Shown: piece by piece, positions 24,654 to 42,981 of the stretch
Layout of the letters: each line of letters opens with the position of its first letter
Numbering within the stretch: the first letter of the stretch is position 1
Assembly: GCA_964434285.1 (NCBI GenBank)
Contig: CAYSUJ010000001.1
Location: 168,703 to 232,702 of the forward strand
Direction: 5' to 3'
Length of the DNA: 64,000 nt
From: an uncultured Candidatus Saccharibacteria bacterium
GTDB lineage: Bacteria; Patescibacteriota; Minisyncoccia; Phycocordibacterales; UBA2100
Position numbers and translations under genes: made by a program
The notes under the pieces: model-generated
Database searches by the model: none
What the model was told of the DNA's origin: nothing
What the model saw: only the letters and a program-made list of their open reading frames with translations

Positions 24654-24883
24654 GCCGGAATGCTACCTTTTCCGGCCCCTTAGCGGCAAGCGGGTAGCCT
24701 GCTACAATGCCCGTGTCGCTCACAGAGCGATTTGCCTAAACTCGTCGGAAACGGCGGGCATGGCAAAAAGACAGATCATGCCCAGAAACCCGTCACGGGG
24801 TTCGCATGATCTGCCGTATGGGGAAACCCATATGCCCGTGGCGGTTTTTTGCTGCCCGGATTTATAAAATTATTCGGGATAAC

Positions 24884-25726: not shown

Positions 25727-25940
25727 ATGGGCACTTATATAGTTTCTTCGAAAATGTGGGAAAAGTAGACAAAAGTCAGACCCGAATCTCGTAAATACTG
25801 GACGTATCATGGGCACTTTTAGCACATCGGTACTTCTGGCGGAATGCGACTTTGGGCACCTTTTGTGGAGATCACTGCACCTAGTGCAGTAAGGTCTGTC
25901 ACTAGACTCAATCGTCTCCTCGTGGCACGCTGATGGGCAC
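25727..25940 (+). promoter_or_regulatory. four direct repeats of TGGGCAC(T/C) at 25727, 25810, 25853 and 25934 (the last overlaps the kinase ATG), plus the palindrome CTGCAC-cta-GTGCAG at 25875-25889
   Basis: Read directly: aTGGGCACTTatat, aTGGGCACTTttag, tTGGGCACCTtttg, gaTGGGCACCatg. Confidence 0.35.
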
Positions 25941-28651: not shown

Positions 28652-29164
28652 TCAGGGTTTTCTGGTCTTTATATACTCGCGGTATGCCAGCATACAACCC
28701 TCTGTAAATTCTTGTGGCCGCTCGTTCATCCATTTCTCCAGCTCCTCCGCTGGTATCCACCGAACTTCTGAGACTTCGTCGAGATCAGGATGTACTTCGC
28801 CATCATAAACACCTCTATAGACGCGATTAAAGCGTTTCTTGCCTCGCGCTTCATCGGTTTCCTCTTTGTAGTAATAGCCAATTTCCGTAAGCGGAACTCC
28901 TTCAACTCCGACTTCTTCTTTCAATTCACGATATGCAGCTTCTTCGTAAGTCTCTCCATGATCCACATGTCCGGCGGCCGATTGGTCCCACTTGTCAGGA
29001 TTAGAGAAGATATGCGGGCCTCGCTTCTGCATCAATACTTCTCCCTTTGAGTTGATCAAGAACACACGGGCTATTCGATGTCGGATACCTTTCTCAAGCG
29101 CCTCTTGTTTCGTACCGCCACCGAGGATATTATCGTTTTCGTCTACAAAGGTGATGTCTGTCAT
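28652..29164 (-). CDS. Nudix hydrolase
   Basis: Nudix box GHVDHGETYEEAAYRELKEEVGV (G-x5-E-x7-R-E-x2-E-E-x-G-U). Confidence 0.8.
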   Translation of the reverse strand: MTDITFVDENDNILGGGTKQEALEKGIRHRIARVFLINSKGEVLMQKRGPHIFSNPDKWDQSAAGHVDHGETYEEAAYRELKEEVGVEGVPLTEIGYYYKEETDEARGKKRFNRVYRGVYDGEVHPDLDEVSEVRWIPAEELEKWMNERPQEFTEGCMLAYREYIKTRKP

Positions 29165-29167
29165 ATA

Positions 29168-29773
29168 CTAAGCGCGAGAATTGAAAATAGCTTTTAATTC
29201 TGTTTTCTTTTGAGGATCGGCAAGTGCGGCAAGGATAAGAGGCACAACCTCACGCTCAGCGAAGTTGTCTTGTGTTCCGACCGCAAGAAACTCGTCGAAT
29301 GAGACCGGGTAGAGTTCGATCTTCTCACCTGCATCAGGATTCATGTCCGCGACTTTCTTCACCCCTTTTGCAATGAACGTGTATACAGCCCAATCAATCT
29401 TTCCAACTGGCTGTTGTGCATTCCACAAAACAAATTCTTCAGCTTCGTATCCCGTTTCTTCAAGCATCTCACGACGTGCCGCCTCGATCGGTTCTTCTCC
29501 ACTTTCCATGCGACCACCCGCACCGCCGATAAACGAGAGTTTACCCGGCTGTTCTTGTTTCGTGAGCAAGATCTTCCCATTGGGTAATACTGGAAATACG
29601 ATCACTGTGTCCGGACGTTTTACCTTTTCAAATGTCGCTTTCGTGCCATCAAACATCTCTTGCTCCCATTGGTACACATCGAAAAGCCTTCCCTTAAATG
29701 CGAGCTTGGCGTTCGAGGGGATTGGCTGCTTAGATTCTGGTCGCGGGATTTTCATATCACAGATTCGCATCAA
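29168..29773 (-). CDS. Nudix hydrolase, ADP-ribose pyrophosphatase-like
   Basis: Nudix box GGAGGRMESGEEPIEAARREMLEETGY, with an N-terminal extension resembling ADPRase (LFDVYQWEQ...). Confidence 0.75.
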   Translation of the reverse strand: MMRICDMKIPRPESKQPIPSNAKLAFKGRLFDVYQWEQEMFDGTKATFEKVKRPDTVIVFPVLPNGKILLTKQEQPGKLSFIGGAGGRMESGEEPIEAARREMLEETGYEAEEFVLWNAQQPVGKIDWAVYTFIAKGVKKVADMNPDAGEKIELYPVSFDEFLAVGTQDNFAEREVVPLILAALADPQKKTELKAIFNSRA

Positions 29774-30140
29774 GAAAGGCCTTTAGTGCTTTCAGGTCTC
29801 GTTTCTCTTGGTCGAAATGATACGACGATATGCCGACTGCTTCTGCGCTTTTGACGGCTGCCGGATTATGCTCGAAGTAGACCACATTGTCTGCAGTCAA
29901 GTTGAAGTGTTTTAGCATTTTCTCGAAGTATGCAGAGTCAGTCTTCTCCGGATCATGTTTGAGGGTAAAGACTTCGTATGGCATCTGATCGAGCCCGAAT
30001 TTCTTGAATTGTTCGTCGTTCGCCCCAGTGAGAATGATTTTCCGATTCGAGTACGCTTCCAACAGGTCGTACATCTTCTTGAAAATCTCTCCGGTATCCG
30101 AGACAAAGCAGTCTACCGCATCAACGAGGATGGTTTTCAT
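29757..30140 (-). CDS. HAD-superfamily hydrolase-like protein (small phosphatase)
   Basis: N-terminal ILVDAVDCF (DxD-type motif I) and a length/pattern typical of small HAD phosphatases; overlaps both flanking genes. Confidence 0.5.
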   Translation of the reverse strand: MKTILVDAVDCFVSDTGEIFKKMYDLLEAYSNRKIILTGANDEQFKKFGLDQMPYEVFTLKHDPEKTDSAYFEKMLKHFNLTADNVVYFEHNPAAVKSAEAVGISSYHFDQEKRDLKALKAFLDANL

Positions 30141-30949
30141 ACAACAAATGAATCAATCCACCTCAAGAAAATCTCTCTTATTTCGGCAAGATGTTTCGGA
30201 TCACGGAAGGTGTGCGGCGCATCTTTGATTATTTGCATTTCCTTTTGGCCAGGCAACGCATCGAACAATGCTTTCTGATGTTCGGGAGGCGTCGAATCAT
30301 CGACATCACCAACTATAAGAAGCACTGGCATAGTCAGATTTTCCACGTCCGGTAGAAGATCGTATTTCAAGCGATCAGTCATATGCGACCATTTAAGCCG
30401 CTTTATCCGCCCCGGTTCGCTGACACTTTCTTCCTCTCGCCAGCCGGTTCGCCCCCATTCATCAGCAACCTTCTTGTGTTTATCCGTCTGTGCGCTGAGT
30501 GCACCCGAAACAACTGTTGAGATTGGTGCAAGTGCCTGTACCTTTTCCGGATGCTTTTCTGCATAAAGCGCTGTTGAGATGCCGCCAAGACTGTGTCCAG
30601 CAAGTGCAAATGGCTCTTGGTACCACGACTGCGTTCCGGCCCACGCGATTACATCTTCAAGGTCTTCGTAATAGTTCGTAGTGGTCGCGTCGCTGTAATC
30701 GCCGTCGCTTTCGCCGAAGGTATTTGTCGTGTCAAAACGGATCGCGGTAAACCCTTTCTCAAGAAATGCGTGAGCGAAAGTCTCAATATGCGGCTGTTCC
30801 TTGAATCCTCCGAGGCCGTGCATTACAAAGGCTAATCCTTTCTGGTTGTCTGCCTTTTCGAGTATGATCGCCATTTTCTGCCCTTTTCGGTTTTGGATGA
30901 ACAGCTTTTCCATACCCGCCAGCATACCGTTTTCGGGATAAAGCGCCAA
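30137..30949 (-). CDS. alpha/beta-fold hydrolase
   Basis: HGLGG oxyanion region and nucleophile elbow LAGHSLGG (GxSxG), plus a C-terminal His region (DAPHTF). Confidence 0.75.
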   Translation of the reverse strand: MALYPENGMLAGMEKLFIQNRKGQKMAIILEKADNQKGLAFVMHGLGGFKEQPHIETFAHAFLEKGFTAIRFDTTNTFGESDGDYSDATTTNYYEDLEDVIAWAGTQSWYQEPFALAGHSLGGISTALYAEKHPEKVQALAPISTVVSGALSAQTDKHKKVADEWGRTGWREEESVSEPGRIKRLKWSHMTDRLKYDLLPDVENLTMPVLLIVGDVDDSTPPEHQKALFDALPGQKEMQIIKDAPHTFRDPKHLAEIREIFLRWIDSFVV

Positions 30950-30975
30950 TACGCTTTACTTGCTAGAATGGCTGC

Positions 30976-31545
30976 ATGGAAACAGAATATGAGGCGAAAT
31001 TTCTCAATGTTGACAAAGACGAAGTTCGGACACGATTGAAGACAGTCGGAGCAACGCTCAAGCGACCGGAATTCGCACAGCGCAGATGGGTTTTTGATTT
31101 ACCTTCCGCTATCCATTCAAGAAATGTTTTTGCTCGCGTGCGCGACGAGGGTGGTATTGTCACGATTACGTGGAAAGAATTCTCCGGTACCGAAGTTGAT
31201 CACCCAAAAGAAATCGAGATAATCGCCGACGATTTTGATAAGGCAGTGGCATTAGTAAAAGCACTCGGTTGCACTCCACGCTCCTATCAGGAAAACCGCC
31301 GCGAGCTTTGGCATCTCGATAATGCGAAAATCACGATTGATTCATGGCCATTCTTCGAACCGTTCGTGGAAGTCGAGGGTACTTCCGAGGAAGACATGAA
31401 GGAGGCATCGGAAAAGGCGGGTTTTGATTGGTCGCAAGCTCTCTTTTGCGGTGTGAGTAAGCTTTTTCAGAAACGATATGGCGAGCATGTCCATATCCGC
31501 GAAATGCCAAGGCTCACCTTTGATATGCCAAACCCATTCGTATAA
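30976..31545 (+). CDS. CYTH-domain protein (triphosphate tunnel metalloenzyme, CyaB / thiamine-triphosphatase class)
   Basis: N-terminal EYEAKF (the ExExK signature) and about 180 aa, the typical size of a stand-alone CYTH. Confidence 0.65.
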   Translation: METEYEAKFLNVDKDEVRTRLKTVGATLKRPEFAQRRWVFDLPSAIHSRNVFARVRDEGGIVTITWKEFSGTEVDHPKEIEIIADDFDKAVALVKALGCTPRSYQENRRELWHLDNAKITIDSWPFFEPFVEVEGTSEEDMKEASEKAGFDWSQALFCGVSKLFQKRYGEHVHIREMPRLTFDMPNPFV

Positions 31546-32260: not shown

Positions 32261-33920
32261 CTATTTCATTGCCTTATTTGAGATGCCGAAAAATCGGTCA
32301 AAGAAGCCTGTGAGCTTGTTGAGAACGGTCTCCCGCTTCTGTGAACGCTCGCCGCTCGCTGAGAAGCGAGACACCGGCGGCAACACCTTCGTGAGCGCTG
32401 TCCCCGTGGTAGCGACGGCACCATCTCGGAAGGCATTTTGGACGAACGCGTAGGTGGCGTCATGGTCAAGGTTCTCGTCCTTGATGATTTGATCCAGTTC
32501 TTCTATCTTTTTTTCCTCAACATACCTTTGCCAATCCTCGTCGACCACAGAATTCGCATCGAGTGACGAGATGAACTTATTGATGAGGTCTTTCTTGTTG
32601 CGCAGCTCGACACTCGAATCAATTGCTTTGTTGATGTCGATCAGGAGCTCTTTATTCTTGGTATGGTCTTCGTGGTACTTCTTGATGAGGGCGAGGATGT
32701 AATCGATATTTATCTCAATCTGCTTAATGAGCTCCATCTCGAACACCAGATCGTCGTTGATGTTTTCCTTTTCCTTGTCGAGGCTTGTGCGAAACTCGTT
32801 GTACAGATCGATGTACATGCTGTGGTAATCCTGTAAGTCTCTCGCGGAGAGTATTTCGTTCCCTACAAACTGATCGAAGGTCACCAAGATATTCCGCACA
32901 CGCAAGACAGCACCGTACAGTTTGATGAAGTCCTTCTGGTTCTGTTCACCCATGATGCGCTCGCCCACAGGGAACTTCGCCAAGAGCTCATCAACCAAGC
33001 TCTTATATCCGCGCACTTCCTTGTTGCGCTCTTTGTAGCCGTTGTAGTAATCCTCATACGCCTTAAGCAACACAATGCCGCTCGCTTCTTTGTCGCCAAA
33101 GAGCGCAATTGCTTCATTCGTCGCTTTCTCCAGGTTGCGGAAACAGACAATATTTCCAAAGGTTTTTATGCTGTTGAGGATGCGATTAGTTCGAGAATAT
33201 GCCTGCAGTAATCCATGGAGTCGCAGATTCTTGTCTACCCATAGGGTGTTGAGCGTCGTCGCATCAAAGCCCGTTAGAAACATGTTGACCACGATGAGGA
33301 TATCAACCTCGCGATTCTTCACGCGCTCGCTCACATCCTTGTAATAGTTCTGGAACTTGTCAGACGAGGTGTCATAAGACGTGCCGAACATTTCGTTGTA
33401 GTCGGTAATGGCGCTCTCCAAGAAGTCCCGCGAGCTCGCATCAAGCCCGCTGGTGTCTTCGGAGTTTTCATCGATCATTCCGTCAGCATCCTCATCATTA
33501 ACCCCGAAGCTGAAGATCGTTGCAATCTTTAATTTCTTGTCACTCGGCACCTCTGCAAGCTGTTTTTTGAACTCCGCATAATATTTCTTAGCGACATCAA
33601 TGGAAGATACGGCGAAGATTGAATTGAAGCCCGCGAGCCGTCGATCTTTCAGCTTGTAAAAGCTATTGCGCTTCGTCTTTTGGTCGAAGTGTTCACGTAT
33701 ATAGCGCACGATATTCTCGAGTCGTTCCGGTGAGGCGAGAGCAGCTTCACGATCGATACCACTCACTTGTTTGTCCTCTATGTCTTCCGCTTCACGGATG
33801 GTGGAGACGTAATCTACCTTGAAAGGCAGCACATTTTTATCCGCGATGGCGTCCACAATCGTGTACGTGTGGAGTTTGGTGCTGACCCGAGTCCCAAATC
33901 TTAGACACGCTTTCTAGCGA
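32261..33920 (-). pseudogene. hsdR: type I restriction enzyme R subunit (HsdR), C-terminal roughly 550 aa only; the reading frame stays open upstream past the GTG at 33856 until it hits a stop at the IS3 border
   Basis: Helicase motif VI region ...VNMFLTGFDATTLNTLWVDKNLRLHGLLQAYSRTNR plus the HsdR C-terminal domain; no N-terminal nuclease or helicase motifs I-III; the IS3 element abuts its 5' side. Confidence 0.7.
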
Positions 33921-33950: not shown

Positions 33951-34205
33951 ATGAAAAAGCATCGCATAGCTCCTGAGGTAAAGGAGCAGATTATCAATCG
34001 CATCAAAAACGAGGGGGTCTCGGTGCAACAGGCTGCCACAGAACATGGCGTCACGACATCCACAATATACGCCTGGATCGGGGCGAAGGTGGAAGGAGGT
34101 CCGTCAGTGATGGAGATCGCGAAACTCCGAAGGGAGAACGAAGAGCTCCTCAAGATGATCGGGATCCTCACCATGAAGCTCAGCGAGTCCCAAAAAAAGA
34201 AGTAG
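33951..34205 (+). CDS. IS3 family transposase OrfA (HTH)
   Basis: See the mobile_element entry. Confidence 0.8.
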   Translation: MKKHRIAPEVKEQIINRIKNEGVSVQQAATEHGVTTSTIYAWIGAKVEGGPSVMEIAKLRRENEELLKMIGILTMKLSESQKKK

Positions 34206-34210
34206 CACGC

Positions 34211-35020
34211 ATGGACGCACTCACAAAGAGTGCGCGCGCAAAGCTTGTCGGTGTTTCTCGTGCCTCGCTCTACTACTACCACAAGATGGAGGACAAGGAT
34301 CACGCGCTCAGGCGTGATATTGAGGGTGTCTTGCGTACCCGCGCAGGGAGAAGCTACGGATACCGCCGTATAGCCGTCGCACTCCGCATCAACGAAAAGC
34401 GCGCACGCAGAGTCATGCGCAAGTTTGGCCTGAAGCCGTACCGAAGACGAGGCAAGAGATACTGCAGAGCAAAGCCGCAGAATGAAGTGTATCCGAACCT
34501 TCTTCAGTTGGTCACACCAGCGTATCCTGGCTGTGTCTGGGTTGCAGACTTTACCCATCTCAACTACCGAGGCATTGATGTATCGGTGGCCACGGTGCTC
34601 GATGTGTACTTGAGGAAGATTGTCGGCATCGCGGTGGGCACGAAGCACGGCGCGCCGCTCATTACAAGCGCCTTTGGCAACGCACTCCTCGCACACGGGA
34701 GACCGGCCATCTTCCACTCAGACAATGGTAGCGAGTATCATGCCGCATCGTTTCGCATGCTCCTTGTGAACCTCGACATCGCCATCTCATGCTCGAAGAA
34801 GGGCTGCCCGTGGGAGAATGGGTATCAAGAGAGTTTCTACGACAAGTTCAAGAACGATCTTGGCGACCCTTCACGCTTCAACTCACTGGGTGAACTCACT
34901 GCGGCAATCTACGAGACCATGCACGTCTACAATACCGAGCGCATTCATTCTGCGCTCAAGATGCCGCCACATCAATTTGCACTCGCGCACGCCGCTGCTA
35001 CACTACACACACGTCATTAG
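34211..35020 (+). CDS. IS3 family transposase OrfB (DDE integrase core), expressed as an OrfAB fusion by a -1 frameshift
   Basis: DDE motifs D(FTHL)...D(NGSEY)...E(NGYQES). Confidence 0.85.
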   Translation: MDALTKSARAKLVGVSRASLYYYHKMEDKDHALRRDIEGVLRTRAGRSYGYRRIAVALRINEKRARRVMRKFGLKPYRRRGKRYCRAKPQNEVYPNLLQLVTPAYPGCVWVADFTHLNYRGIDVSVATVLDVYLRKIVGIAVGTKHGAPLITSAFGNALLAHGRPAIFHSDNGSEYHAASFRMLLVNLDIAISCSKKGCPWENGYQESFYDKFKNDLGDPSRFNSLGELTAAIYETMHVYNTERIHSALKMPPHQFALAHAAATLHTRH

Positions 35021-35120
35021 AGAGCAGTGTCAGGAAAAAGGACTCACTGCACACTGACAAAAGCCCAACTCAAATTCATCGAAGGGGCTCTCGCGTGCAG
35101 GTTAAGTCCTGAGTCTCTGC

Positions 35121-35642
35121 TTATCGTGGAGTGGAGCTCATAATAGGAGTACTATTTTTCGTGCGAAGAAATTCTTGCATAGCGTTCAAAAAACCATGAG
35201 TGAATCTTTCCGGATCGGTGTTCAAAGACGCGATGACATTCGATACCGCCATCTTCTCAAGTGATTTAACTTCCTCGGTTTCCATAAATTTCCATCCCAC
35301 AGGAGCCATAGCCTCGTAAATAGCCCAGAAGTGGTTGAAGCGAGCATTTTCTGGCAGGAACGTGGAGACGTGCTTGATTGGAACGTCTAACCTTATTTCC
35401 TCAAACATCTCCCTCCGCGCCGCATCATCATACGATTCTCCCTTTCCGACATGCCCGCCGACTGCGAGATCGTACTTGCCGTACTTGTTGCTCGTTTGAA
35501 CGTAAAGGCTTCCGTCCGCATCAAAAACAAAAACCCCGACAATACGGTGCATGAGTTTTAGTTCGTGCGCCGTCGTCGCATCAGTCGTCCCGATCACGTT
35601 ATTGTTTTCGTCGACGATATCAATCTGCTCGGAATCAGCCAT
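35121..35642 (-). CDS. Nudix hydrolase, paralog of the 28652..29164 gene
   Basis: Nudix box GGHVGKGESYDDAARREMFEEIRL; N-terminus IVDENNNVIG versus VDENDNILG, and C-terminus FTHGFLNAMQEFLRTK versus FTEGCMLAYREYIKTRK, in the paralog. Confidence 0.8.
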   Translation of the reverse strand: MADSEQIDIVDENNNVIGTTDATTAHELKLMHRIVGVFVFDADGSLYVQTSNKYGKYDLAVGGHVGKGESYDDAARREMFEEIRLDVPIKHVSTFLPENARFNHFWAIYEAMAPVGWKFMETEEVKSLEKMAVSNVIASLNTDPERFTHGFLNAMQEFLRTKNSTPIMSSTPR

Positions 35643-35648
35643 ACACTT

Positions 35649-37154
35649 TTATCGGAATTTTGTCTCGCGCTTGTGAGCCCTCCATTCGCGTGCGTGTTCG
35701 TCATGTTGGGCGGTGATATCGGACACAATCTTCAATTCACTCGCGTAGCTCGCCTTGAGGTTCCGAAATTCCGGATCCTTAAAAAGTTCTGGTTCGTTCG
35801 TAACCGCGTATACTGGGTCTATATGCCTCAACTTCACAGAAACTTCTTCGCCGATTGTCGCATCCTCTACAACACCGAGTTTGCGCATCAACTCTCTATT
35901 CCCCGCAGTGACTGACAACCTGAACTCGCGTTCGTTCAATTGATGTTTCAGATCGTTTCGGAGTATCTTTTTTCTCGACAATGCGGCATACGTACGCAAG
36001 TTATTCGTTCGGAGATACTGACGCATAAATTTCGGAAACATCGAGAGGAGCGGCGGGATCTCGGTCGGAGGCTTCACCCGACTGCTTGAAAATAACGTGT
36101 CGTACCATAGCTTCTCGAATTCCTGCGTCTGTTCGGTATGGAAATCGACTGGTTTCTGACCCCAATCAAGCATTTCCTCTGAGAACGCAATACTCATGCG
36201 GGCACAGAGCTCACGCAGCAACTCCTCCGGCGCGGCTCGTACATCAGTCGTATCGAACACGATATGTGATTTGCCTGTTGATTCAAGATACGCTACTTCC
36301 TCTGCAAGTTTCTTGAACTCCTCCTTCTCAAAATTCATCCGGCGCGGATTTGCTTTCAACACGCCCTCAAAAAACGCATAATCGCGCTCGGCGTACAATT
36401 TTCTGTCGACAAGATCCCGCCAGTTTATATATCCGTTCCTGCGAGCCATGAAGTCCAATAATTCGTTCTGTACAGTCATGACGGGTGTATCTTGTAGACG
36501 TTCAAGATTCTCTCCGTTGTGCAGAAAGTCGAGCGGTTCGGTGTAAGTCCCGCTCTGCACAGCGTCCGAGAACGCTACCCAGTTTGAAAAACCTTTCTCA
36601 GCCGCAGCATAATCGAGTAAATATCGCTGGAGATCGATGCTTGAGCGCATGTCAATCGTCGTCAACACGCGCCGTATCCGAGACTCGACGGACAATAGCG
36701 GGTTGCGTATCAGCACGACCACGGGATTGTGCGTGAGTTCGATTAACCGCACGTATTCTTTGTTCTTTCCGATCCAATGAGACATCTCCTTCACGGCTAC
36801 ACTTGTCCTTTCTCCGGACTGCTCGAATTGTTCTCCGCCGATTGATTCGTAAATTTGCTTATAGCCGTGATCGGGATCGAAATCGTCCCGCCGCGCGCCA
36901 AGAAACGGCTCGTGGCATTCATGTTGTATATCGGACGAATTGCCGACGACGTGCTCAATGAGGGAAGAATTTGTCCTGGGCGGCGCAATGATAATATGTA
37001 TCGAAAGCCGCCCGTCGCTAACGAGTTTCTGCAACTTTTCGTAGTATGAACCATTGCTCATGAGAAGAATGATAGCCGAGTTATCTGCATCCTCAAAGCC
37101 GTGAAAAACGTGGTTGAAAGCGGGTAATGCTCTCAACCACGAATTGCCGTTCAA
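35649..37154 (-). CDS. sulfotransferase-fold-like N-terminal domain (IIAPPRTNSSLI as a PAPS 5'-phosphosulfate-binding-like motif; IRNPLLSVESRIRR as a 3'-phosphate-binding-like R-N-P...S motif) plus a roughly 250-aa unknown C-terminal domain
   Basis: Motif-level resemblance only. A 4-nt ATGA overlap with the upstream kinase-like gene suggests translational coupling. Confidence 0.35.
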   Translation of the reverse strand: MNGNSWLRALPAFNHVFHGFEDADNSAIILLMSNGSYYEKLQKLVSDGRLSIHIIIAPPRTNSSLIEHVVGNSSDIQHECHEPFLGARRDDFDPDHGYKQIYESIGGEQFEQSGERTSVAVKEMSHWIGKNKEYVRLIELTHNPVVVLIRNPLLSVESRIRRVLTTIDMRSSIDLQRYLLDYAAAEKGFSNWVAFSDAVQSGTYTEPLDFLHNGENLERLQDTPVMTVQNELLDFMARRNGYINWRDLVDRKLYAERDYAFFEGVLKANPRRMNFEKEEFKKLAEEVAYLESTGKSHIVFDTTDVRAAPEELLRELCARMSIAFSEEMLDWGQKPVDFHTEQTQEFEKLWYDTLFSSSRVKPPTEIPPLLSMFPKFMRQYLRTNNLRTYAALSRKKILRNDLKHQLNEREFRLSVTAGNRELMRKLGVVEDATIGEEVSVKLRHIDPVYAVTNEPELFKDPEFRNLKASYASELKIVSDITAQHDEHAREWRAHKRETKFR

Positions 37155-37738
37155 AGAGCTGCTTCGATAATCCGCAGAGCGTTATCGAGTTTCGCCGCCC
37201 GATTCCTTCCGGTGACGATTCGAATGGGCAGGCCGTCTCGAATAAAACCAGCTATCTGTTTCTCCCAGTTCCGAGCCTCGCGGATACGTCTTGTGATCTC
37301 TCGCGCAGAAGATCCTCGTACAGTAAGACGTCTCCGAATCTCAGGTTCGGGAGGTGGCGCGATATGCAAGAACGCTCCCCGATTGCCGAGACGTTCCCAC
37401 CAGCGAGGAATATTGCCAGGCGTGATGGGTCGGATGGATAGAGATTTGCGCTCCAGCGATGCTTTTATACTCGCTTCGCGCATGCCGTAATAGTTGCGGG
37501 AGAACTTCGTGTACACGAAGAACTCTCCACGGGCTACCGCGGCTTCGAACTCGCCCTTCGAGATATACTCATACTCGCCGGAAAAATCTTCGTCACGAGG
37601 TCTCCTCGTCGTTGTCGATGTCATGAACATCGATCTAGGCATCGAGCGTAGCAGACCTTCTGTCAACGTACTCTTCCCCACCCCAGAGGCCCCAGTAATG
37701 AGAACGATCCGTAGATTACGTCTGTGGGTCTTGTTCAC
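37151..37738 (-). CDS. guanylate-kinase-like P-loop nucleoside monophosphate kinase
   Basis: Walker A ITGASGVGKSTL, then STTTRRPRDEDFSGEYEYISKGEFE (the Gmk S-x-TTR-x-PR...G-x-Y-x-F signature) and ...YYG. Confidence 0.6.
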   Translation of the reverse strand: MNKTHRRNLRIVLITGASGVGKSTLTEGLLRSMPRSMFMTSTTTRRPRDEDFSGEYEYISKGEFEAAVARGEFFVYTKFSRNYYGMREASIKASLERKSLSIRPITPGNIPRWWERLGNRGAFLHIAPPPEPEIRRRLTVRGSSAREITRRIREARNWEKQIAGFIRDGLPIRIVTGRNRAAKLDNALRIIEAAL

Positions 37739-38008
37739 ATCAACCTCCTATTTTCACCACGACTGCATACACCCTAGCGTAACTGACATCTGAGTGCAAC
37801 GAAGATAACGTTCCCAGTCGACAGCTTAAAAACGCGAGAGTCGTGTCGCATTTGTCGTATTTACATTTTGACCCAAAGCGACCCGTCCGCGTCAGAACCT
37901 ATCACCAAGAAACCTTTGGATTGCTTCACATCGACGGTGTGTGGACCTATACTGGGAGCATAGATACATACAGCAGACTTGCGCCATGTTAAGGTGTGAG
38001 TTCGGGAT

Positions 38009-38473
38009 ATGAAAAGCTACACACATACGCAGATTGGTTATTTGATGATTTGCGTCACACTTCTGGTGCTCACACTCTTCGTGTGGGTGCAGATGACGGC
38101 GCGCGCCGAACCCCCTTCCCCCGATTCCGGAACGAATCTTTTGGTGACTGCTGTGATGGCATTGATACTCGTCGTCCTCGGGTCACTCTCGACACTGACC
38201 ATCTCTCTTGACGAACAGTCTCTCCGTATTCGTTTCGGTTGGGGCATTTTCCACAAACGGTTTCCCCTCTCCGACATCGCAACATTTCAAAAGACCAAAA
38301 ATCATTGGTATTACGGTTGGGGAATCCGATTCTGGCTCTGGCCCAAGATGTGGATTTTCAACGTTTCTGGTTTTGACGCAGTGGAGCTCACTATGAAAAA
38401 TGGAGACGTATATCGCATCGGCACCGATGAGCCTGACGCACTTCTCGGTGCGCTTACCCGAGCGACACACTAG
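38009..38473 (+). CDS. membrane protein, two N-terminal TM helices plus a PH-like C-terminal domain
   Basis: Hydropathy and a bPH-like pattern; no confident family. Confidence 0.45.
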   Translation: MKSYTHTQIGYLMICVTLLVLTLFVWVQMTARAEPPSPDSGTNLLVTAVMALILVVLGSLSTLTISLDEQSLRIRFGWGIFHKRFPLSDIATFQKTKNHWYYGWGIRFWLWPKMWIFNVSGFDAVELTMKNGDVYRIGTDEPDALLGALTRATH

Positions 38474-39336: not shown

Positions 39337-39612
39337 ATGAAATACATGGACGAAAATAATAAGGCGAAGGTTAACCGTCGCCTCAAGCTTTTGGAGGGTC
39401 AGGTTCGAGGTCTTCAAAAGATGGTTGAGAACGATGCCTACTGCATCGACGTTATTACCCAAACATCGGCAGTAAAGCAGGGCTTGTCTAATGTCGAGGA
39501 TATGCTTCTTGAAAACCACCTTGGACATTGCGTTTTTCATCAAGTCCAATCTGGCCAAACAAAGAAAGCCACGGAGGAAATTATCAAAGTTTACAAGCTA
39601 AAGCGGAAATAA
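39337..39612 (+). CDS. csoR: CsoR/RcnR-family metal-sensing transcriptional repressor (copper-sensitive operon repressor)
   Basis: DUF156 pattern with the metal-ligand Cys (YCIDV) and H-x4-C (HLGHCVFH) motifs; sits upstream of copA. Confidence 0.8.
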   Translation: MKYMDENNKAKVNRRLKLLEGQVRGLQKMVENDAYCIDVITQTSAVKQGLSNVEDMLLENHLGHCVFHQVQSGQTKKATEEIIKVYKLKRK

Positions 39613-39613
39613 T

Positions 39614-41908
39614 ATGCATACACAGACCTACAAAGTAAAAGGAATGCATTGCGCCTCCTGCTCATCGGTCATCGAGAAGACTTTTAAGAAAGTCACGGGG
39701 GTAGAATCAGCGGAAGTTAACTACGGCACAGAAAAGGCCAAGGTATCGTTTGATCCGTCAAAAACAAACCCGCACGATCTCTCGAAACATATTGAACCGC
39801 TCGGCTACTCTCTGGAAATTCCAATGAGTGCTGAAGAAATGGGTATGAGTGAAAGCGAGCATGCAGCTCACCTCGGGCTTAACCAATCAAAGAAGGAAAA
39901 GCTCGCAGAAGTTGCGGATATGAAGACAAAGGTGCTCTCGGCCATTCCCCTTGCCATCATTGCCGCTTTTATCATGGGCTGGGATATTCTTGCGGAATAC
40001 AAAGTCGTGGCAGAAATGGATTACGCGGTGACGGAATTTTTTCACCACTTACTTCCTATTTTCGCGACGTACATCCTTTTTGTAGTGGGCAAGCCCTATT
40101 TGCTCGGTTTTTATAGATTCCTTCGTTATGGCAAGGCAAACATGGACACGCTGATCGGAATCGGGACCGTTTCCGCTTTTCTCTACAGTTTTGCCGTCAG
40201 CGCTTTTGAAGAAGCGCTTCGGCCTTTTATAAATGTTGAGTATCAATACTACGACGTGACGATTGTAGTCATTACGTTTATTGCTCTCGGAAAGTATCTT
40301 GAAGCGCGTTCAAAAATAAAGACGGGCGATGCAATTGAGAAATTGCTCAATCTCCAAGCCAAGACCGCGCTTGTCATCCGTGACGGCAAAGAAGTCGAGA
40401 TTGAAGCTGTCGACGTTAAACATGGTGATGTGGTCATTATCAAACCCGGCGCAAAGATTCCGGTGGACGGCGTAATAACCGAGGGCGGTTCCTTTATCGA
40501 CGAGTCTATGGTCACCGGCGAGCCGATGCCGAGGCATATGAAGATCGGCGATTCTGTCGTCGCCGGAACAATCAACGGGAGCGGCTCGTTTACTTTCAAG
40601 GCTACAAAAGTCGGGTCGGAGACCTTGCTCGCCCAGATTATAAAAATGGTCGAGGTTGCCCAAGGAAGTAAGGCGCCGATTCAGGCATTGGCTGACAAAA
40701 TTTCTGCGGTTTTTGTGCCAATCGTTCTTGTCATTGCGTTCCTTACGCTAGGCACTTGGCTCATTGTCGGCTCACAGTATCTTGGCTTCTCACAAGCACT
40801 CTCTTTCGGCCTCGTCTCGTTTGTAGGCATCCTTGTTATCGCATGTCCGTGTGCTTTGGGGCTTGCCACACCGACCGCCATCATCGTTGGCGTGGGCAAG
40901 GGTGCGAAAGAAGGCATTCTCATCAAAGATGCGGCGACTCTTGAGAAGCTTCACAAGGTCAATACGGTAGTGGTTGATAAAACGGGAACAATCACTAAAG
41001 GTAAGCCGACTCTGGTGCATATTCAGAATCTTTCCGATCTAAATGATAACGAATTGGTGTCGGTTATTGCTTCGTTAGAAAAGAAGTCCGAGCATCCGAT
41101 TGCACATGCGATCGTAAGCTATGCAGAGGGGAAAAATATTGCGCTGTCAGAAATTTCGGAATTTGAAGGCATACAGGGCAAGGGATTAAAAGGTAGGTTC
41201 ATGGGAGTTGAATATTTTGTCGGTAACGCAAAACTCGTGAGCGACCTCAATCTTGCCTTTGACGCTGCACTACTGAACAAGTTTACCTCGGAGGGCAAGA
41301 CGCCAGTCATTCTCGCCACCAAAGATAAGGTACTCGGCTTTGTGATGGTGGCCGATGAGATAAAACAGGAGTCAAGGCAAGCTGTCGCTGATCTGTATAA
41401 GCTCGGAATCAAAGTGGTCATGCTTACCGGCGACGACGAAAAGGCCGCAAAATACATTGCCTCTCTGGTGGGAATTGGTGATGTTGTTGCTCATGTCTTA
41501 CCGCAAGACAAGCTCGAAAAAATACAGGCGATCCAGTCGCAAGGCGCAATTGTGGCCATGGCCGGCGACGGCGTGAATGACGCCCCAGCACTCGCCCAGG
41601 CGGATGTCGGTATCGCCATGGGAACCGGCACGGACGTGGCCATTGAGTCGGCTGGTATCACGCTTCTTGGTGGAGATATCTCAAAGTTGGTGAAGGCTAT
41701 CAGGCTGTCCAAAATCACCATGAGAGGCATCAAGCAAAACCTGTTCTGGGCATTTGTTTATAACATCGTAGGCATACCGCTTGCGGCAGGAGTCTTTTAT
41801 CCGCTTGGAGGATGGCTCTTAAATCCGGTCTTTGCCGGGTTCGCGATGGCTTTATCTAGCGTGTCAGTGGTGTCGAATTCACTGAGAATTAAAGCTAAAA
41901 AAATATAA
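39614..41908 (+). CDS. copA: copper-translocating P1B-type ATPase
   Basis: N-terminal HMA domain GMHCASC, CPC in TM6, DKTGT phosphorylation site, GDGVNDAPAL. Confidence 0.9.
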   Translation: MHTQTYKVKGMHCASCSSVIEKTFKKVTGVESAEVNYGTEKAKVSFDPSKTNPHDLSKHIEPLGYSLEIPMSAEEMGMSESEHAAHLGLNQSKKEKLAEVADMKTKVLSAIPLAIIAAFIMGWDILAEYKVVAEMDYAVTEFFHHLLPIFATYILFVVGKPYLLGFYRFLRYGKANMDTLIGIGTVSAFLYSFAVSAFEEALRPFINVEYQYYDVTIVVITFIALGKYLEARSKIKTGDAIEKLLNLQAKTALVIRDGKEVEIEAVDVKHGDVVIIKPGAKIPVDGVITEGGSFIDESMVTGEPMPRHMKIGDSVVAGTINGSGSFTFKATKVGSETLLAQIIKMVEVAQGSKAPIQALADKISAVFVPIVLVIAFLTLGTWLIVGSQYLGFSQALSFGLVSFVGILVIACPCALGLATPTAIIVGVGKGAKEGILIKDAATLEKLHKVNTVVVDKTGTITKGKPTLVHIQNLSDLNDNELVSVIASLEKKSEHPIAHAIVSYAEGKNIALSEISEFEGIQGKGLKGRFMGVEYFVGNAKLVSDLNLAFDAALLNKFTSEGKTPVILATKDKVLGFVMVADEIKQESRQAVADLYKLGIKVVMLTGDDEKAAKYIASLVGIGDVVAHVLPQDKLEKIQAIQSQGAIVAMAGDGVNDAPALAQADVGIAMGTGTDVAIESAGITLLGGDISKLVKAIRLSKITMRGIKQNLFWAFVYNIVGIPLAAGVFYPLGGWLLNPVFAGFAMALSSVSVVSNSLRIKAKKI

Positions 41909-41910
41909 CT

Positions 41911-42981
41911 ATGAATACATATACATTCCACGTTTCCGGCACTCACTGCGCTTCATGCAAGATCTTCATTGAAGATACGTTGAACGAGCAGCTTGGTATC
42001 GAGCGTGCAAACGTCGATCTGAAGAACGAAACCGTATCGTTTGATACAACCCTTAAAGAAGACCAGCAACAACTTGCAGATATGCTCTCGGAAAAAATTA
42101 AACGCAACGGATACGCTCTTTCAGTCCCGCCTCCGCAGGGCTACGGACGGGCAAGCGAGAAAATGGTAAAACAGAAGGATGGTCAGGGGCTTATTTGGCA
42201 AGCACTGCCGATCGGACTTGGGTTTCTGATTCTGTTTTTCTTACTGCAAAAGTCCGGCATTCTTAATCTCGGACTCGGCGGGGAGATTTTGCCCGTCACC
42301 AGTTTTATTATCGGTCTCATTGCGTCAGTATCATCGTGTCTCGCAATAGTTGGCGGCTTGGTCTTATCGCTTTCGGCCAAAATATCGCAGGACAATATAA
42401 GCGACACCCGCCTTCGCGCGAGGCTACGGACGGGCGAGGCAAAAACGTTCACACTTTTCCATGTGGGCAGGCTTGCCAGCTTTGCGGTGTTGGGCGGCGT
42501 TTTGGGGGCAATCGGTAGCGCGATAGGTATTAATTTCACGTTTACGGCAATCTTGGGCATCCTGGCATCGGTGGTGATGTTACTCTTGGGACTGAACTTG
42601 GTCGGAATTTTTGAAAAAAATAAGATCGCTCTGCCCTCAGGAATTTTCAATTTTTTCCGTAGAATCGAGCATAAAACATTTACCCCACTTGTTCTCGGTT
42701 TTGCCACGTTTTTCCTGCCCTGTGGATTTACGCAATCGATGCAGGTTCAGGCATTAAGCAGCGGATCGTTCATGTCGGGACTTACTATCATGCTCGCATT
42801 TGCTTTGGGGACCTTACCGATGCTTCTACTTCTTTCTTTCGGCTCTGCATCGTTTGCTCACGGAAAGCACGCCCCACTATTCTTCAAATCTGCCGGAATA
42901 GTCGTCATCGGCCTCGGACTGTTCGCGCTTCTCGCAGGGCTTGCCGGACTTGGAATTATTCCTCCGCTATTTAATATCTAA
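41911..42981 (+). CDS. HMA (CxxC copper-chaperone-like) domain fused to a multi-TM membrane domain of the DsbD/CcdA-like or TauE-like type
   Basis: GTHCASCKIFIED then about 8 TM helices; typical accessory of cop operons. Confidence 0.6.
   Translation: MNTYTFHVSGTHCASCKIFIEDTLNEQLGIERANVDLKNETVSFDTTLKEDQQQLADMLSEKIKRNGYALSVPPPQGYGRASEKMVKQKDGQGLIWQALPIGLGFLILFFLLQKSGILNLGLGGEILPVTSFIIGLIASVSSCLAIVGGLVLSLSAKISQDNISDTRLRARLRTGEAKTFTLFHVGRLASFAVLGGVLGAIGSAIGINFTFTAILGILASVVMLLLGLNLVGIFEKNKIALPSGIFNFFRRIEHKTFTPLVLGFATFFLPCGFTQSMQVQALSSGSFMSGLTIMLAFALGTLPMLLLLSFGSASFAHGKHAPLFFKSAGIVVIGLGLFALLAGLAGLGIIPPLFNI

What the first reader, a model, noticed from the sequence alone, without database searches (positions are those of the whole stretch)
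35121..37738. Guanylate-kinase-like, sulfotransferase-fold-like and Nudix operon; its Nudix is a paralog of the one 6 kb away
The first two of three minus-strand genes overlap by ATGA, and the third follows 7 nt downstream. The first is a P-loop NMP kinase with the Gmk S-TTR-PR signature. The second, a 501-aa protein, has motif-level resemblance to sulfotransferase PAPS-binding elements (PPRTNSSLI; IRNPLLSVESRIRR) plus an unassigned 250-aa domain. The third Nudix is clearly paralogous to the Nudix at 28652..29164, with shared N-terminus VDEN(D/N)N and C-terminus FT(E/H)G...E(Y/F)(I/L)(K/R)T. Duplicated Nudix genes therefore bracket the IS3/hsdR junction. A kinase plus sulfotransferase-like plus Nudix set suggests modification of a nucleotide or nucleoside-like substrate, for example a sulfated or phosphorylated nucleotide product, rather than core metabolism, where a real gmk would sit elsewhere.
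Basis: partly seen in the sequence, partly recalled or inferred. Interest (0 to 1): 0.6.

Follow-up and report, generated by a model that had tools for sequence, protein, structure and literature searches.

The report
Sulfotransferase–Nudix–kinase module of Patescibacteria
Three neighbouring genes (a kinase derived from guanylate kinase, a sulfotransferase and a Nudix hydrolase) form a conserved but uncharacterised module in the tiny-genome Patescibacteria, and it probably sulfates a nucleotide-like small molecule.

Summary
The three minus-strand ORFs exist, and their family assignments hold up.

- **Sulfotransferase:** the middle protein passes Pfam Sulfotransfer_5. It keeps both PAPS-binding motifs and a TPST-like Arg/Glu/Lys set. 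A confident model (pLDDT 92.6) finds TPST1/2 first, though weakly.
- **Nudix:** it belongs to the DR_0079/YfcD type and has an intact catalytic box.
- **Kinase:** it is Gmk-derived. It keeps the phosphate-binding residues but has lost all three guanine-binding residues, and it scores far below the gmk equivalog cut-off.

The grouping is not chance. Among 35 non-redundant orthologous loci, all Patescibacteria-type, the Nudix is adjacent or fused to the sulfotransferase in 28, and a Gmk-like kinase is adjacent in 20. Three loci add an APS kinase, which in two of them is fused to a small nucleotidyltransferase.

Some details in the finding are wrong:
- The kinase/sulfotransferase "ATGA overlap" is really TTGA.
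- The homolog-supported start lies 90 nt downstream, after a conserved terminator-like hairpin.
- The two Nudix genes are only 28% identical, so they are old paralogs and not a recent duplication.

The acceptor is unknown. No PAPS synthesis gene and no second gmk lie in the 64-kb window.

Verdict: a real, uncharacterised variant of a known enzyme kind, of moderate interest.

The parts
37151..37738 (-). Gmk-derived P-loop kinase (195 aa, GTG start preceded by AGGAGG). The phosphate-binding residues are kept and the guanine-binding residues are lost.
   Evidence: ORF and sequence. Pfam Guanylate_kin scores 59 bits. TIGR03263 scores 85 bits against a cut-off of 160. Aligned to yeast Guk1 (1GKY), E69, S80 and D100 become V, M and I, while R38, R41, Y50 and Y78 are kept.
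37109..37141 (-). Terminator- or attenuator-like hairpin (13 bp, 7 G-C pairs) followed by TTTTT, in the spacer between the kinase and the sulfotransferase.
   Evidence: Pattern scan. The fold has a z-score of -3.55. The stem is invariant in L020, where the loop differs and frame-breaking indels are present. L058 has an equivalent hairpin with a different stem sequence.
37069..37096 (-). Promoter-like site, TTGAGG-16-TATCAT. The -10 box ends 7 nt before the ATG at 37061, which could mean a leaderless sulfotransferase-Nudix transcript.
   Evidence: Consensus scan only. TATCAT at the same offset is conserved in L020 and L058. This is an inference, not a demonstration.
35649..37061 (-). Sulfotransferase-fold protein, 470 aa from the homolog-supported ATG (the longest ORF would start at the TTG at 37154). 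Numbered from that ATG: 5'-PSB loop P27-P28-R29-T-N-S32-S, H50-E51-P52-F53, K91-E92, 3'-PB R119-N-P-L-L-S-V-E-S127. A helical insertion covers roughly residues 140-260 and a C-terminal extension covers residues 335-470.
   Evidence: Pfam PF19798 scores 24.7 bits against a cut-off of 23.2. The AF2 model has pLDDT 92.6 and pTM 0.90, with five core strands. The top Foldseek PDB hits are TPST2 and TPST1. The C-terminal 136 aa have no fold match.
35121..35642 (-). Nudix hydrolase of the DR_0079/YfcD (COG1443) type, 173 aa, starting 6 nt after the sulfotransferase stop. Its Nudix box is GX5EX7REX2EEXRU.
   Evidence: Pfam NUDIX E 6e-12. NF011922 YfcD scores 61.6 bits, below its cut-off. The closest solved structures are DR_0079 (E 1.7e-8) and YfcD 2FKB. 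The box glutamates are conserved in nearly all of 22 orthologs (one has Thr at one position). In L001, L010/L035/L036 and L012 it is fused to the sulfotransferase.
28652..29164 (-). Distant paralog of the module's Nudix (170 aa). It is not part of the module.
   Evidence: 28% identity, E 4e-22. Module Nudix orthologs in other genomes are 41-82% identical to the window protein but only 25-31% identical to this one.

Best explanation
This is a self-contained accessory gene module restricted to Patescibacteria (CPR). Its core is a PAPS-type sulfotransferase that works as a physical pair with a Nudix diphosphatase. In other lineages the two are translationally coupled or fused into one polypeptide. 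A kinase derived from guanylate kinase usually accompanies them.

Proposed mechanism:
1. The sulfotransferase binds PAPS through its 5'-PSB loop (PPRTNSS, Arg29) and its 3'-PB element (Arg119...Ser127).
2. It transfers the sulfo group using a TPST-like Arg/Glu/Lys set (Arg29, Glu51, Lys91).
3. The acceptor is a cytosolic small molecule of nucleotide type that carries a phosphomonoester or a diphosphate.
4. The Nudix (diphosphate to monophosphate plus Pi) and the Gmk-derived kinase (monophosphate to diphosphate, with a base pocket no longer suited to guanine) set the phosphorylation state of that acceptor or of its sulfated product.

What is shown: the folds and motifs, the loss of the guanine-binding residues, the conservation of the gene set, the fusions, and APS-kinase adjacency in some lineages.

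What is inferred: PAPS as donor, the nucleotide nature of the acceptor, and the order of the steps.

In this genome the kinase gene appears to be a separate transcription unit. A terminator-like hairpin follows it, and then a promoter-like site precedes the tightly spaced sulfotransferase-Nudix pair.

The confidence of 0.5 applies to this whole mechanism. That the three genes form a real conserved module around a true sulfotransferase-fold enzyme is much more certain, at about 0.9.
For: Sulfotransferase identity:
- Pfam Sulfotransfer_5 is above the gathering score. Of 70 family members, 60 hit Sulfotransfer_5 and 15 hit Sulfotransfer_3. The N-terminal PSB region of P0077 aligns to positions 3-43 of Sulfotransfer_3, and P0074 covers positions 78-223 of Sulfotransfer_5.
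- The invariant residues fall exactly in the PSB and PB motifs.
- The model has five core strands arranged strand-loop-helix at both motifs.
- The top PDB fold hits are TPST2 and TPST1, with probability 0.89-0.97. The TPST catalytic set Arg78/Glu99/Lys158 (PMC10951654) has the same Arg-to-Glu spacing as here (21 against 22 residues).

Module conservation:
- Among 35 non-redundant orthologous loci the Nudix is adjacent or fused in 28 and truly absent in 2. A Gmk-like kinase is adjacent in 20.
- Gene order and strand vary and the flanking genes are unrelated housekeeping genes, so selection acts on the set itself.
- ST::Nudix fusions occur in three lineages.

PAPS link:
- APS_kinase is adjacent in L001, L036 and L012, and next to distant relatives in L016 and L056.

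Nucleotide-type substrate:
- The closest characterised Nudix, DR_0079, is described as a pyrimidine nucleoside di-/triphosphate diphosphatase.
- All three kinase subtypes keep the TTR..R/Y/Y phosphate binders but replace E69 and D100 of yeast Guk1.
- In L002, which lacks both partners, a Cytidylate_kin2 gene sits next to the sulfotransferase.
Against: - No acceptor has been identified. Nothing in the data directly ties the sulfotransferase active site to a nucleotide.
- The structural match to solved sulfotransferases is weak (E about 0.05, TM about 0.4, no hit at E<=0.001). A sequence profile search of the PDB found nothing.
- No APS kinase or ATP sulfurylase lies in the 64-kb window, and most loci lack one nearby, so the donor supply is unexplained.
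- A kinase and a Nudix acting on the same compound would form a futile cycle unless they act before and after sulfation.
- The kinase is missing from at least 5 loci that have adequate flanks, so it is not obligatory.
Confidence: 0.5

Rival explanations
1. The sulfotransferase acts on a non-nucleotide acceptor such as a tyrosine in a peptide, a glycan or a lipid. The Nudix and the kinase only service the cofactor economy, for example by removing ADP or other by-products that inhibit PAPS synthesis, or by recycling AMP.
For: The best structural matches are protein-tyrosine sulfotransferases. A Nudix ADPase has been used to pull PAPS synthesis in vitro (reference 27 in PMC10638397). The large family-specific insertion and C-terminal extension could bind a macromolecule.
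Against: Fusing an acceptor-specific enzyme to a by-product scavenger in a 1:1 ratio would be unusual. The kinase has lost the base-pocket residues, but nothing shows it gained an adenine pocket. No candidate peptide, glycosyltransferase or lipid genes are conserved nearby. All three proteins appear to be cytosolic.
Confidence: 0.25
2. The middle protein is not a sulfotransferase. It would instead be another P-loop-derived nucleotide-binding enzyme, such as a kinase like zeta toxin or deoxynucleoside kinase, so the module would be a phosphotransfer pathway.
For: Zeta/PezT toxins and dCK appear among the top fold hits at E-values similar to TPST. No sequence-level PDB match exists. Most loci have no PAPS gene nearby.
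Against: There is no Walker A GxxxxGK[ST] motif. The loop reads PPR(T/S)xS(S/T), as in sulfotransferase 5'-PSB loops. An R-x7-S 3'-phosphate motif is invariant. Pfam hits go only to sulfotransferase families. APS kinase is adjacent in five loci.
Confidence: 0.1
3. The module is a conflict or defence system that makes a toxic sulfated nucleotide analogue. This would be the logic of viperin plus CMPK2, with the Nudix protecting the producer or trimming the product.
For: In the window the module lies beside an IS3 element, a truncated hsdR, and, about 7 kb away, a Ser/Thr kinase that matches PD-T4-6 defence models. In L002 the gene upstream of the sulfotransferase is weakly RnlA/HEPN-like. The module is rare and patchy in distribution.
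Against: None of the three proteins gives a PADLOC hit beyond generic P-loop or Nudix-box matches. No viral contig encodes a relative. In L058-L060 the module sits among housekeeping genes such as the ATP synthase operon, aminoacyl-tRNA synthetases and RuvA.
Confidence: 0.1
4. The adjacency is fortuitous: a housekeeping gmk happens to lie next to two unrelated genes.
For: The Pfam and PDB best hits for the kinase are guanylate kinases. A terminator-like hairpin separates it from the next gene. No second gmk lies in the window, although 64 kb cannot settle that.
Against: A Gmk-like kinase lies beside the sulfotransferase in 20 of 35 loci, in three different arrangements and three sequence subtypes. 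It scores 85 bits against the 160-bit equivalog cut-off. The guanine-binding E69, S80 and D100 are replaced.
Confidence: 0.03

Closest known systems
Tyrosylprotein sulfotransferases TPST1/TPST2 (PDB 3AP3, 5WRJ, 9WWE)
   Same: They are the best structural matches. Both have a single alpha/beta domain with a five-stranded sheet, a 5'-PSB strand-loop-helix with a catalytic Arg in a P-R-S/T-x-S/T-S/T loop, a Glu 21-22 residues later, a Lys on a following strand, and an R-x7-S 3'-PB element.
   Different: Identity is only 11-12% and TM about 0.4, with E about 0.05. The window protein is a cytosolic bacterial protein with a helical insertion of roughly 100 residues and a 135-aa C-terminal extension of unknown fold. 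It has an obligate Nudix partner. There is no evidence for a peptide substrate.
Pfam PF19798 Sulfotransfer_5 (mostly uncharacterised bacterial sulfotransferases of about 280 aa)
   Same: The window protein and 60 of 70 relatives pass or approach the family threshold. Many proteins of 260-300 aa match the family profile in two stretches that correspond to the core.
   Different: For the window protein only the C-terminal third of the domain aligns (profile positions 137-199). It also carries the insertion, the C-terminal extension, and the conserved Nudix and kinase neighbours. No member of this clade is characterised in the papers found.
DR_0079 of Deinococcus radiodurans and YfcD of E. coli (Nudix, COG1443 group)
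   Same: These are the closest solved relatives (E 1.7e-8 and 5.9e-6). They share the IDI-like N-terminal extension. As in DR_0079 (G to N; here G to R), the last glycine of the Nudix box is substituted.
   Different: The similarity is remote (E 1.7e-8 over about 110 residues). The substrate here is untested. It is coupled or fused to a sulfotransferase, which is not reported for DR_0079 or YfcD.
Guanylate kinase (yeast Guk1 1GKY; TIGR03263)
   Same: It shares the fold, the P-loop, the S/T-TTR-x-x-R motif, the Tyr phosphate binders and the lid arginines.
   Different: The guanine-recognition residues E69, S80 and D100 are replaced in the window kinase, and E69 and D100 in all three module-associated subtypes. 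The score is about half the equivalog cut-off. It occurs next to the sulfotransferase rather than as a universal gene.
Bacterial sulfotransferase loci that carry their own PAPS synthesis genes (NodH with NodPQ; RaxST with RaxPQ). These examples come from my own knowledge and were not tested here.
   Same: In three orthologous loci and two distant ones an APS kinase gene is adjacent to the sulfotransferase.
   Different: In four of the five loci the APS kinase is fused to a small CTP_transf_like nucleotidyltransferase instead of accompanying CysDN or Sat. The accompanying genes are a Nudix, a Gmk-like kinase and sometimes a methyltransferase. The window locus has no PAPS gene nearby.

Membership tests
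PAPS-dependent sulfotransferase superfamily | 5'-phosphosulfate-binding (5'-PSB) strand-loop-helix with a conserved basic residue | tested here: met
   Strand 19-26, then loop A-P-P-R29-T-N-S-S, then helix 32-40 in the model. P, R and S are invariant or nearly invariant in 70 sequences. The region aligns to positions 3-43 of Sulfotransfer_3 in P0077.
PAPS-dependent sulfotransferase superfamily | 3'-phosphate-binding (3'-PB) motif on a strand-helix, Arg...Ser | tested here: met
   Strand 114-118, then R119-N-P-L-L-S-V-E-S127-R at the start of helix 121-138. R119 and S127 are invariant.
PAPS-dependent sulfotransferase superfamily | Profile match above the curated threshold | tested here: met
   PF19798 scores 24.7 bits against a cut-off of 23.2, a marginal pass that covers profile positions 137-199 only. 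Of 70 relatives, 60 match, with a best E of 7.5e-12.
PAPS-dependent sulfotransferase superfamily | Sulfotransferase fold confirmed by structure comparison | tested here: inconclusive
PAPS-dependent sulfotransferase superfamily | Catalytic base positioned at the acceptor (His in SULTs, Glu in TPST and heparan sulfate sulfotransferases) | tested here: inconclusive
   H50-E51 is nearly invariant and lies 22 residues after the PSB Arg, against 21 in TPST2. No model coordinates were accessible to check the geometry.
PAPS-dependent sulfotransferase superfamily | PAPS-dependent sulfotransfer activity | not testable with these tools
   This needs biochemistry. The only indirect support is APS kinase adjacency in 5 loci.
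Guanylate kinase (EC 2.7.4.8, TIGR03263 equivalog) | Score above the equivalog cut-off | tested here: not met
   85.1 bits against 160.45. The other gmk equivalogs score 60-62 bits against cut-offs of 263-318.
Guanylate kinase (EC 2.7.4.8, TIGR03263 equivalog) | Guanine-binding residues (yeast Guk1 E69, S80, D100; residue roles recalled from the 1GKY literature) | tested here: not met
   In the window kinase they are V, M and I. E69 and D100 are also replaced in the 178-aa and 258-aa module-associated subtypes.
Guanylate kinase (EC 2.7.4.8, TIGR03263 equivalog) | P-loop, TTRxxR, the Tyr phosphate binders and the lid arginines (general NMP-kinase machinery) | tested here: met
   GASGVGKST, STTTRRPR, Y56, Y84 and the lid arginines R137, R141 and R151 are conserved.
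Nudix hydrolase | Nudix box GX5EX7REUXEEXGU with the catalytic glutamates | tested here: met
   G-HVGKG-E-SYDDAAR-RE-MF-EE-I-R-L. Only the last Gly is replaced, by Arg here and by other residues in some orthologs. The box glutamates are conserved in nearly all of 22 orthologs (one has Thr at one position). Pfam NUDIX E 6e-12.
Isopentenyl-diphosphate isomerase type 1 (the name JGI gives to several orthologs) | Catalytic Cys67 (E. coli numbering, from my own knowledge) and a score above the equivalog cut-off | tested here: not met
   Going by my own recollection of the E. coli Idi sequence (not aligned with a tool here), the position of Cys67 falls in the conserved (V/A)GGH segment, where it is Gly. 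NF002995 scores 37.5 bits against 127, and TIGR02150 scores 21.7 against 105.8.
   Kinase to sulfotransferase: the overlap exists only for an unsupported TTG start. The supported start is 90 nt downstream, beyond a conserved hairpin and T-run. Sulfotransferase to Nudix: a 6-nt spacer, so this pair is tightly linked.

The most novel reading that the evidence does not exclude
The module makes a previously unknown class of metabolite: a sulfated nucleotide, for example an O-sulfated pyrimidine nucleoside mono- or diphosphate. Patescibacteria would use it as a signal, an antimetabolite or a polymerase poison in dealings with their hosts, their competitors or phages. The fused or coupled Nudix and the re-specialised Gmk-like kinase would control its phosphorylation state. 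In some lineages a minimal PAPS synthase (APS kinase fused to a nucleotidyltransferase of 110-150 aa) would supply the donor.
Probability: 0.15. Interest if true: 0.8.

Novelty: new variant of a known kind. Interest (0 to 1): 0.5.

Why it matters
Patescibacteria have very small genomes and little biosynthetic capacity. A dedicated module that is repeatedly rearranged yet conserved is therefore likely to serve something important to their symbiotic lifestyle. If the acceptor is a nucleotide, this would add sulfation to the known enzymatic modifications of free nucleotides. It would also give a function to an uncharacterised branch of the Sulfotransfer_5 family, to a branch of the orphan YfcD/DR_0079 Nudix group, and to a set of 'guanylate kinases' that automated annotation mislabels. 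The associated fusion of APS kinase with a nucleotidyltransferase could be an unusually small PAPS synthase. All of this can be tested with three small soluble proteins.

Tried and rejected
- A sequence profile search of the PDB with the sulfotransferase family found nothing meaningful (best E 0.14, a proteasome ATPase).
- The C-terminal 136 residues were modelled separately (pLDDT 80) and searched against the PDB. There was no match better than E 2.4.
- No viral contig encodes a relative. PADLOC gave only generic P-loop or Nudix-box hits for the three proteins. A phage or defence origin was therefore not pursued as the main reading.
- Rfam at a permissive threshold found no riboswitch in 34900..38300.
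- The window's own genome could not be extended. The exact sulfotransferase protein is not in the contig index, the kinase is found only on short Logan contigs, and cluster look-ups gave no accession or name. Presence of gmk, cysC or sat elsewhere in the genome therefore remains untested.
- tblastn of canonical Gmk and APS kinase sequences against the window found only the module kinase and no APS kinase.
- Literature searches for PF19798/Sulfotransfer_5, for sulfotransferase plus Nudix plus Patescibacteria, and for YfcD found no characterisation of this module.
- No inverted repeats marking the IS3 ends were found.
- The IDI annotation that JGI gives to orthologs was rejected, because the catalytic Cys is absent and scores are below the cut-offs.
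- A PhnN-like ribose-1,5-bisphosphokinase was considered for the kinase. The match is only 20 bits against a cut-off of 156.


Full report
**Observation**

The minus strand carries three consecutive ORFs: 37151..37738 (195 aa), 35649..37154 (501 aa as the longest ORF) and 35121..35642 (173 aa).

The junction between the first two reads ...GCTCTTTGAACGG.... The four shared bases are therefore TTGA, with a TTG start codon, and not ATGA as the finding states.

That TTG start is probably not used.
- Most homologs are about 470 aa and cover 93-94% of the query.
- In the alignment they begin at the residue equivalent to M32, in the segment MSNGSYYEKL. That is the ATG at 37061.
- An independent gene call on an identical Logan contig also starts the gene 90 nt after the kinase stop.

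The 90-nt spacer is non-coding.
- It contains a 13-bp hairpin with 7 G-C pairs followed by TTTTT (fold z-score -3.55).
- In the 88%-identical relative L020 the stem is invariant. The loop differs, and 1-nt and 3-nt indels would break the reading frame.
- In the 72%-identical relative L058 a different GC-rich hairpin plus T-run sits in the same place.
- In all three, a TATCAT box lies 7-9 nt before the ATG. This hints at a separate, possibly leaderless, sulfotransferase-Nudix transcript. That rests on consensus matches only.

The Nudix gene starts 6 nt after the sulfotransferase stop.

**The sulfotransferase-like protein**

Profile evidence:
- Pfam gives Sulfotransfer_5 (PF19798) at 24.7 bits against a cut-off of 23.2. 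Only residues 266-332 of the 470-aa protein align.
- Scanning 70 family members one by one, 60 match Sulfotransfer_5 (best E 7.5e-12), 15 match Sulfotransfer_3 and 3 match Sulfotransfer_1. No other enzyme family recurs.
- In divergent members the N-terminal loop region aligns to positions 3-43 of Sulfotransfer_3, and the middle aligns to positions 78-223 of Sulfotransfer_5.

Conserved residues, numbered from M32:
- P27-P28-R29-x-x-S32 in the loop APPRTNSS.
- H50-E51-P52-F53.
- K91-E92.
- R119-N-P-L-L-x-x-E-S127-R.
- D270/T272/D273, and several aromatic residues.

Structure:
- An AlphaFold2 model built on the family alignment is confident (pLDDT 92.6, pTM 0.90).
- It has five core strands (19-26, 47-50, 86-93, 114-118, 266-270).
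- The PPRTNSS loop and the RNPLLSVES segment each sit in a strand-loop-helix. That is the arrangement described for the 5'-PSB and 3'-PB motifs of sulfotransferases (PMC10951654).
- The top Foldseek hits against the PDB are TPST2 and TPST1 (probability 0.89-0.97), but they are weak (E about 0.05, TM about 0.4). Zeta toxin, deoxycytidine kinase, SULT2A1 and NDST1 follow.
- The TPST catalytic residues Arg78, Glu99 and Lys158 are mirrored by R29, E51 and K91. The Arg-to-Glu spacing is 22 residues here against 21 in TPST2.
- There is no Walker A GK[ST] motif.

I conclude that this is a sulfotransferase-fold protein. Its PAPS-binding elements are intact and its catalytic set is plausibly TPST-like. 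Activity and donor remain inferred.

- A helical insertion at roughly residues 140-260. It is absent from the short homologs P0072-P0074 and from many relatives of 260-300 aa, which match the profile in two stretches.
- A C-terminal extension of about 135 aa. It models at pLDDT 80 and has no fold match.

**The kinase**

- Its best matches are guanylate kinases (Pfam 59 bits; yeast 1GKY E 1e-18).
- The gmk equivalog TIGR03263 scores only 85 bits against a cut-off of 160.
- Aligned to yeast Guk1, the P-loop, S-TTR-x-x-R, Tyr50, Tyr78 and the lid arginines are kept.
- The three residues that read the guanine base (E69, S80, D100; their roles are recalled from the 1GKY literature) are V, M and I here.
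- E69 and D100 are likewise replaced in the two other kinase subtypes found beside sulfotransferase homologs.
- Close relatives number only nine, at 65-86% identity. Identity then drops to 30-34% for ordinary Gmk proteins.

So this is a Gmk-derived kinase for a phosphomonoester other than GMP. It is not a housekeeping gmk.

**The Nudix**

- The Nudix box is complete except that the final Gly is Arg. DR_0079 has a substitution at the same position.
- The closest solved relatives are DR_0079 (E 1.7e-8), which the Nudix review describes as a pyrimidine nucleoside triphosphate diphosphatase, and E. coli YfcD, whose function is unknown.
- Several orthologs are named isopentenyl-diphosphate isomerase by JGI. 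Going by my own recollection of the E. coli Idi sequence, the catalytic Cys position falls in the conserved (V/A)GGH segment and is Gly. The IDI equivalogs also score far below their cut-offs.
- Orthologs of the module Nudix in other genomes are 41-82% identical to the window protein and only 25-31% identical to the other Nudix. The two are therefore old paralogs. Their positions on either side of the IS3/hsdR remnant say nothing about a duplication event.

**Conservation of the set**

Scans of GTDB genomes and JGI metagenomes, plus exact-protein look-ups, gave 35 non-redundant loci of the orthologous clade. They are titled Parcu-, Sacchari-, Paceibacteria, Falkow-, Staskawicz- and Nomurabacteria, among others. 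A few short contigs binned elsewhere are likely mis-binned.

| Partner of the sulfotransferase | Adjacent or fused | Absent with adequate flanks | Contig too short to tell |
|---|---|---|---|
| Module Nudix | 28 | 2 | 5 |
| Gmk-like kinase | 20 | 5 | 10 |

Three arrangements recur:
- Kinase, then sulfotransferase, then Nudix on one strand. This is the arrangement in the window, L058, L029 and L030 (L020 begins the same way, but its contig ends before a Nudix could be seen).
- Nudix, then sulfotransferase with a 4-nt overlap, and the kinase convergent downstream. This is the most common.
- Kinase, then (methyltransferase), then an ST::Nudix fusion, then APS kinase. This occurs in L001, L010/35/36 and L012.

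The flanking genes differ completely between genomes and are ordinary housekeeping genes. What is conserved is therefore the set itself. The fusions are a classical sign that the sulfotransferase and the Nudix work together.

In L012 and L036, and in the distant relatives L016 and L056, the APS kinase domain is fused to a small CTP_transf_like nucleotidyltransferase. It carries a GRWQPFHxGH motif and occurs in either domain order. ATP sulfurylase belongs to the same HIGH-motif superfold (my own knowledge), so this may be a minimal PAPS synthase. That is a lead, not a result.

The family is rare. In a library of 1.84 billion representatives, 145 match at E<=1e-30 and 1084 at E<=1e-3.

**Mechanism**

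Shown:
- A sulfotransferase fold with both PAPS-binding motifs.
- A catalytically intact Nudix that is genetically and sometimes physically joined to it.
- An NMP-kinase-type enzyme whose base pocket is rebuilt.
- Occasional adjacency to APS kinase and to a SAM-dependent methyltransferase.

Inferred:
- The sulfotransferase uses PAPS to sulfate a cytosolic nucleotide-type small molecule.
- The Nudix (diphosphate to monophosphate) and the kinase (monophosphate to diphosphate) act before and after sulfation. They would deliver the right phosphorylation state of the acceptor or of the product.

Hints toward nucleotides, and perhaps pyrimidines:
- The DR_0079 relationship of the Nudix.
- The NMP-kinase ancestry of the kinase.
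- A Cytidylate_kin2 gene next to the sulfotransferase in L002, a locus that lacks the other two partners.

Weak points:
- The acceptor is unknown.
- The kinase and the Nudix would be futile if they acted on the same species.
- No PAPS synthesis gene lies near most loci, nor anywhere in this window.

Rivals:
- A non-nucleotide acceptor, with the Nudix and kinase only servicing the cofactor.
- A non-sulfotransferase phosphotransfer enzyme.
- A conflict system that makes a toxic nucleotide analogue.
- Chance adjacency, which the conservation data contradict.

**Comparison and novelty**

The parts belong to known superfamilies (Sulfotransfer_5/TPST-like, the YfcD/DR_0079 Nudix group, and Gmk-like kinases). 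I found no description of this clade or of the three-gene association in the searchable literature.

I rate it a new variant of a known kind. It is a real, conserved, uncharacterised module of moderate interest, with a modest chance of leading to new nucleotide chemistry.

Noticed in passing
window 24733..24845 (+); L036 6451..6569 (+); L030 936..1056 (-): LOOT RNA (Rfam RF03000, 70-78 bits against a gathering score of 46) occurs about 10 kb from the module in the window. In L036 it lies 53 nt upstream of the kinase gene of the five-gene version, on the same strand. In L030 it lies about 300 nt from the kinase on the opposite strand. That is three hits in about 330 kb scanned, which may be more than chance for a rare sRNA, but there is no consistent cis arrangement.
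   Followed up: partly
L012 7556..8545, L036 9864..10850, L016 6688..7494 (-), L056 4213..5022 (-): An APS_kinase domain is fused to a small CTP_transf_like nucleotidyltransferase (motif GRWQPFHxGH) in either domain order, next to sulfotransferase homologs. It could be an unusually small bifunctional PAPS synthase. It is not present in the window.
   Followed up: partly
window 25933..27942 (+): A 669-aa protein has an N-terminal Ser/Thr kinase domain that matches PADLOC PD-T4-6 defence models (E 4e-69). Its C-terminal half of about 390 aa is unassigned.
   Followed up: no
window 32261..33856 (-) and 33951..35020 (+): The hsdR-like ORF (531 aa) is only a C-terminal fragment. It abuts an IS3-type transposase pair (orfA 84 aa, orfB 269 aa). 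The missing N-terminal half is not found beyond the IS, which suggests an IS-mediated deletion right next to the module. No terminal inverted repeats were detected.
   Followed up: partly
window 28652..31545: This is a run of small hydrolase-type genes: two adjacent Nudix genes (28652..29164 and 29168..29773), a HAD-like gene (29757..30140), a 270-aa ORF that looks like an alpha/beta hydrolase by eye (30137..30949, not profiled), and a 189-aa ORF at 30976..31545 (+) that had no PADLOC hit and was not Pfam-tested. It may be a nucleotide or phosphoester housekeeping cluster.
   Followed up: no
L002 5470..5958 (+) (also L003, L004): In the one well-flanked lineage that lacks both the Nudix and the Gmk-like kinase, the gene 42 nt upstream of the sulfotransferase is weakly RnlA-DBD/HEPN-like (E 1.5e-4). 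A Cytidylate_kin2 gene lies divergently next to it.
   Followed up: no
window 39337..42981 (+): A metal-resistance block lies on the kinase side of the module, on the opposite strand: a CsoR-type repressor (Pfam Trns_repr_metal on the identical gene in L018), then a 764-aa protein that looks like a P-type copper ATPase by eye, then a 356-aa membrane protein with a heavy-metal-associated-like N-terminus. The last two were not profile-tested.
   Followed up: no
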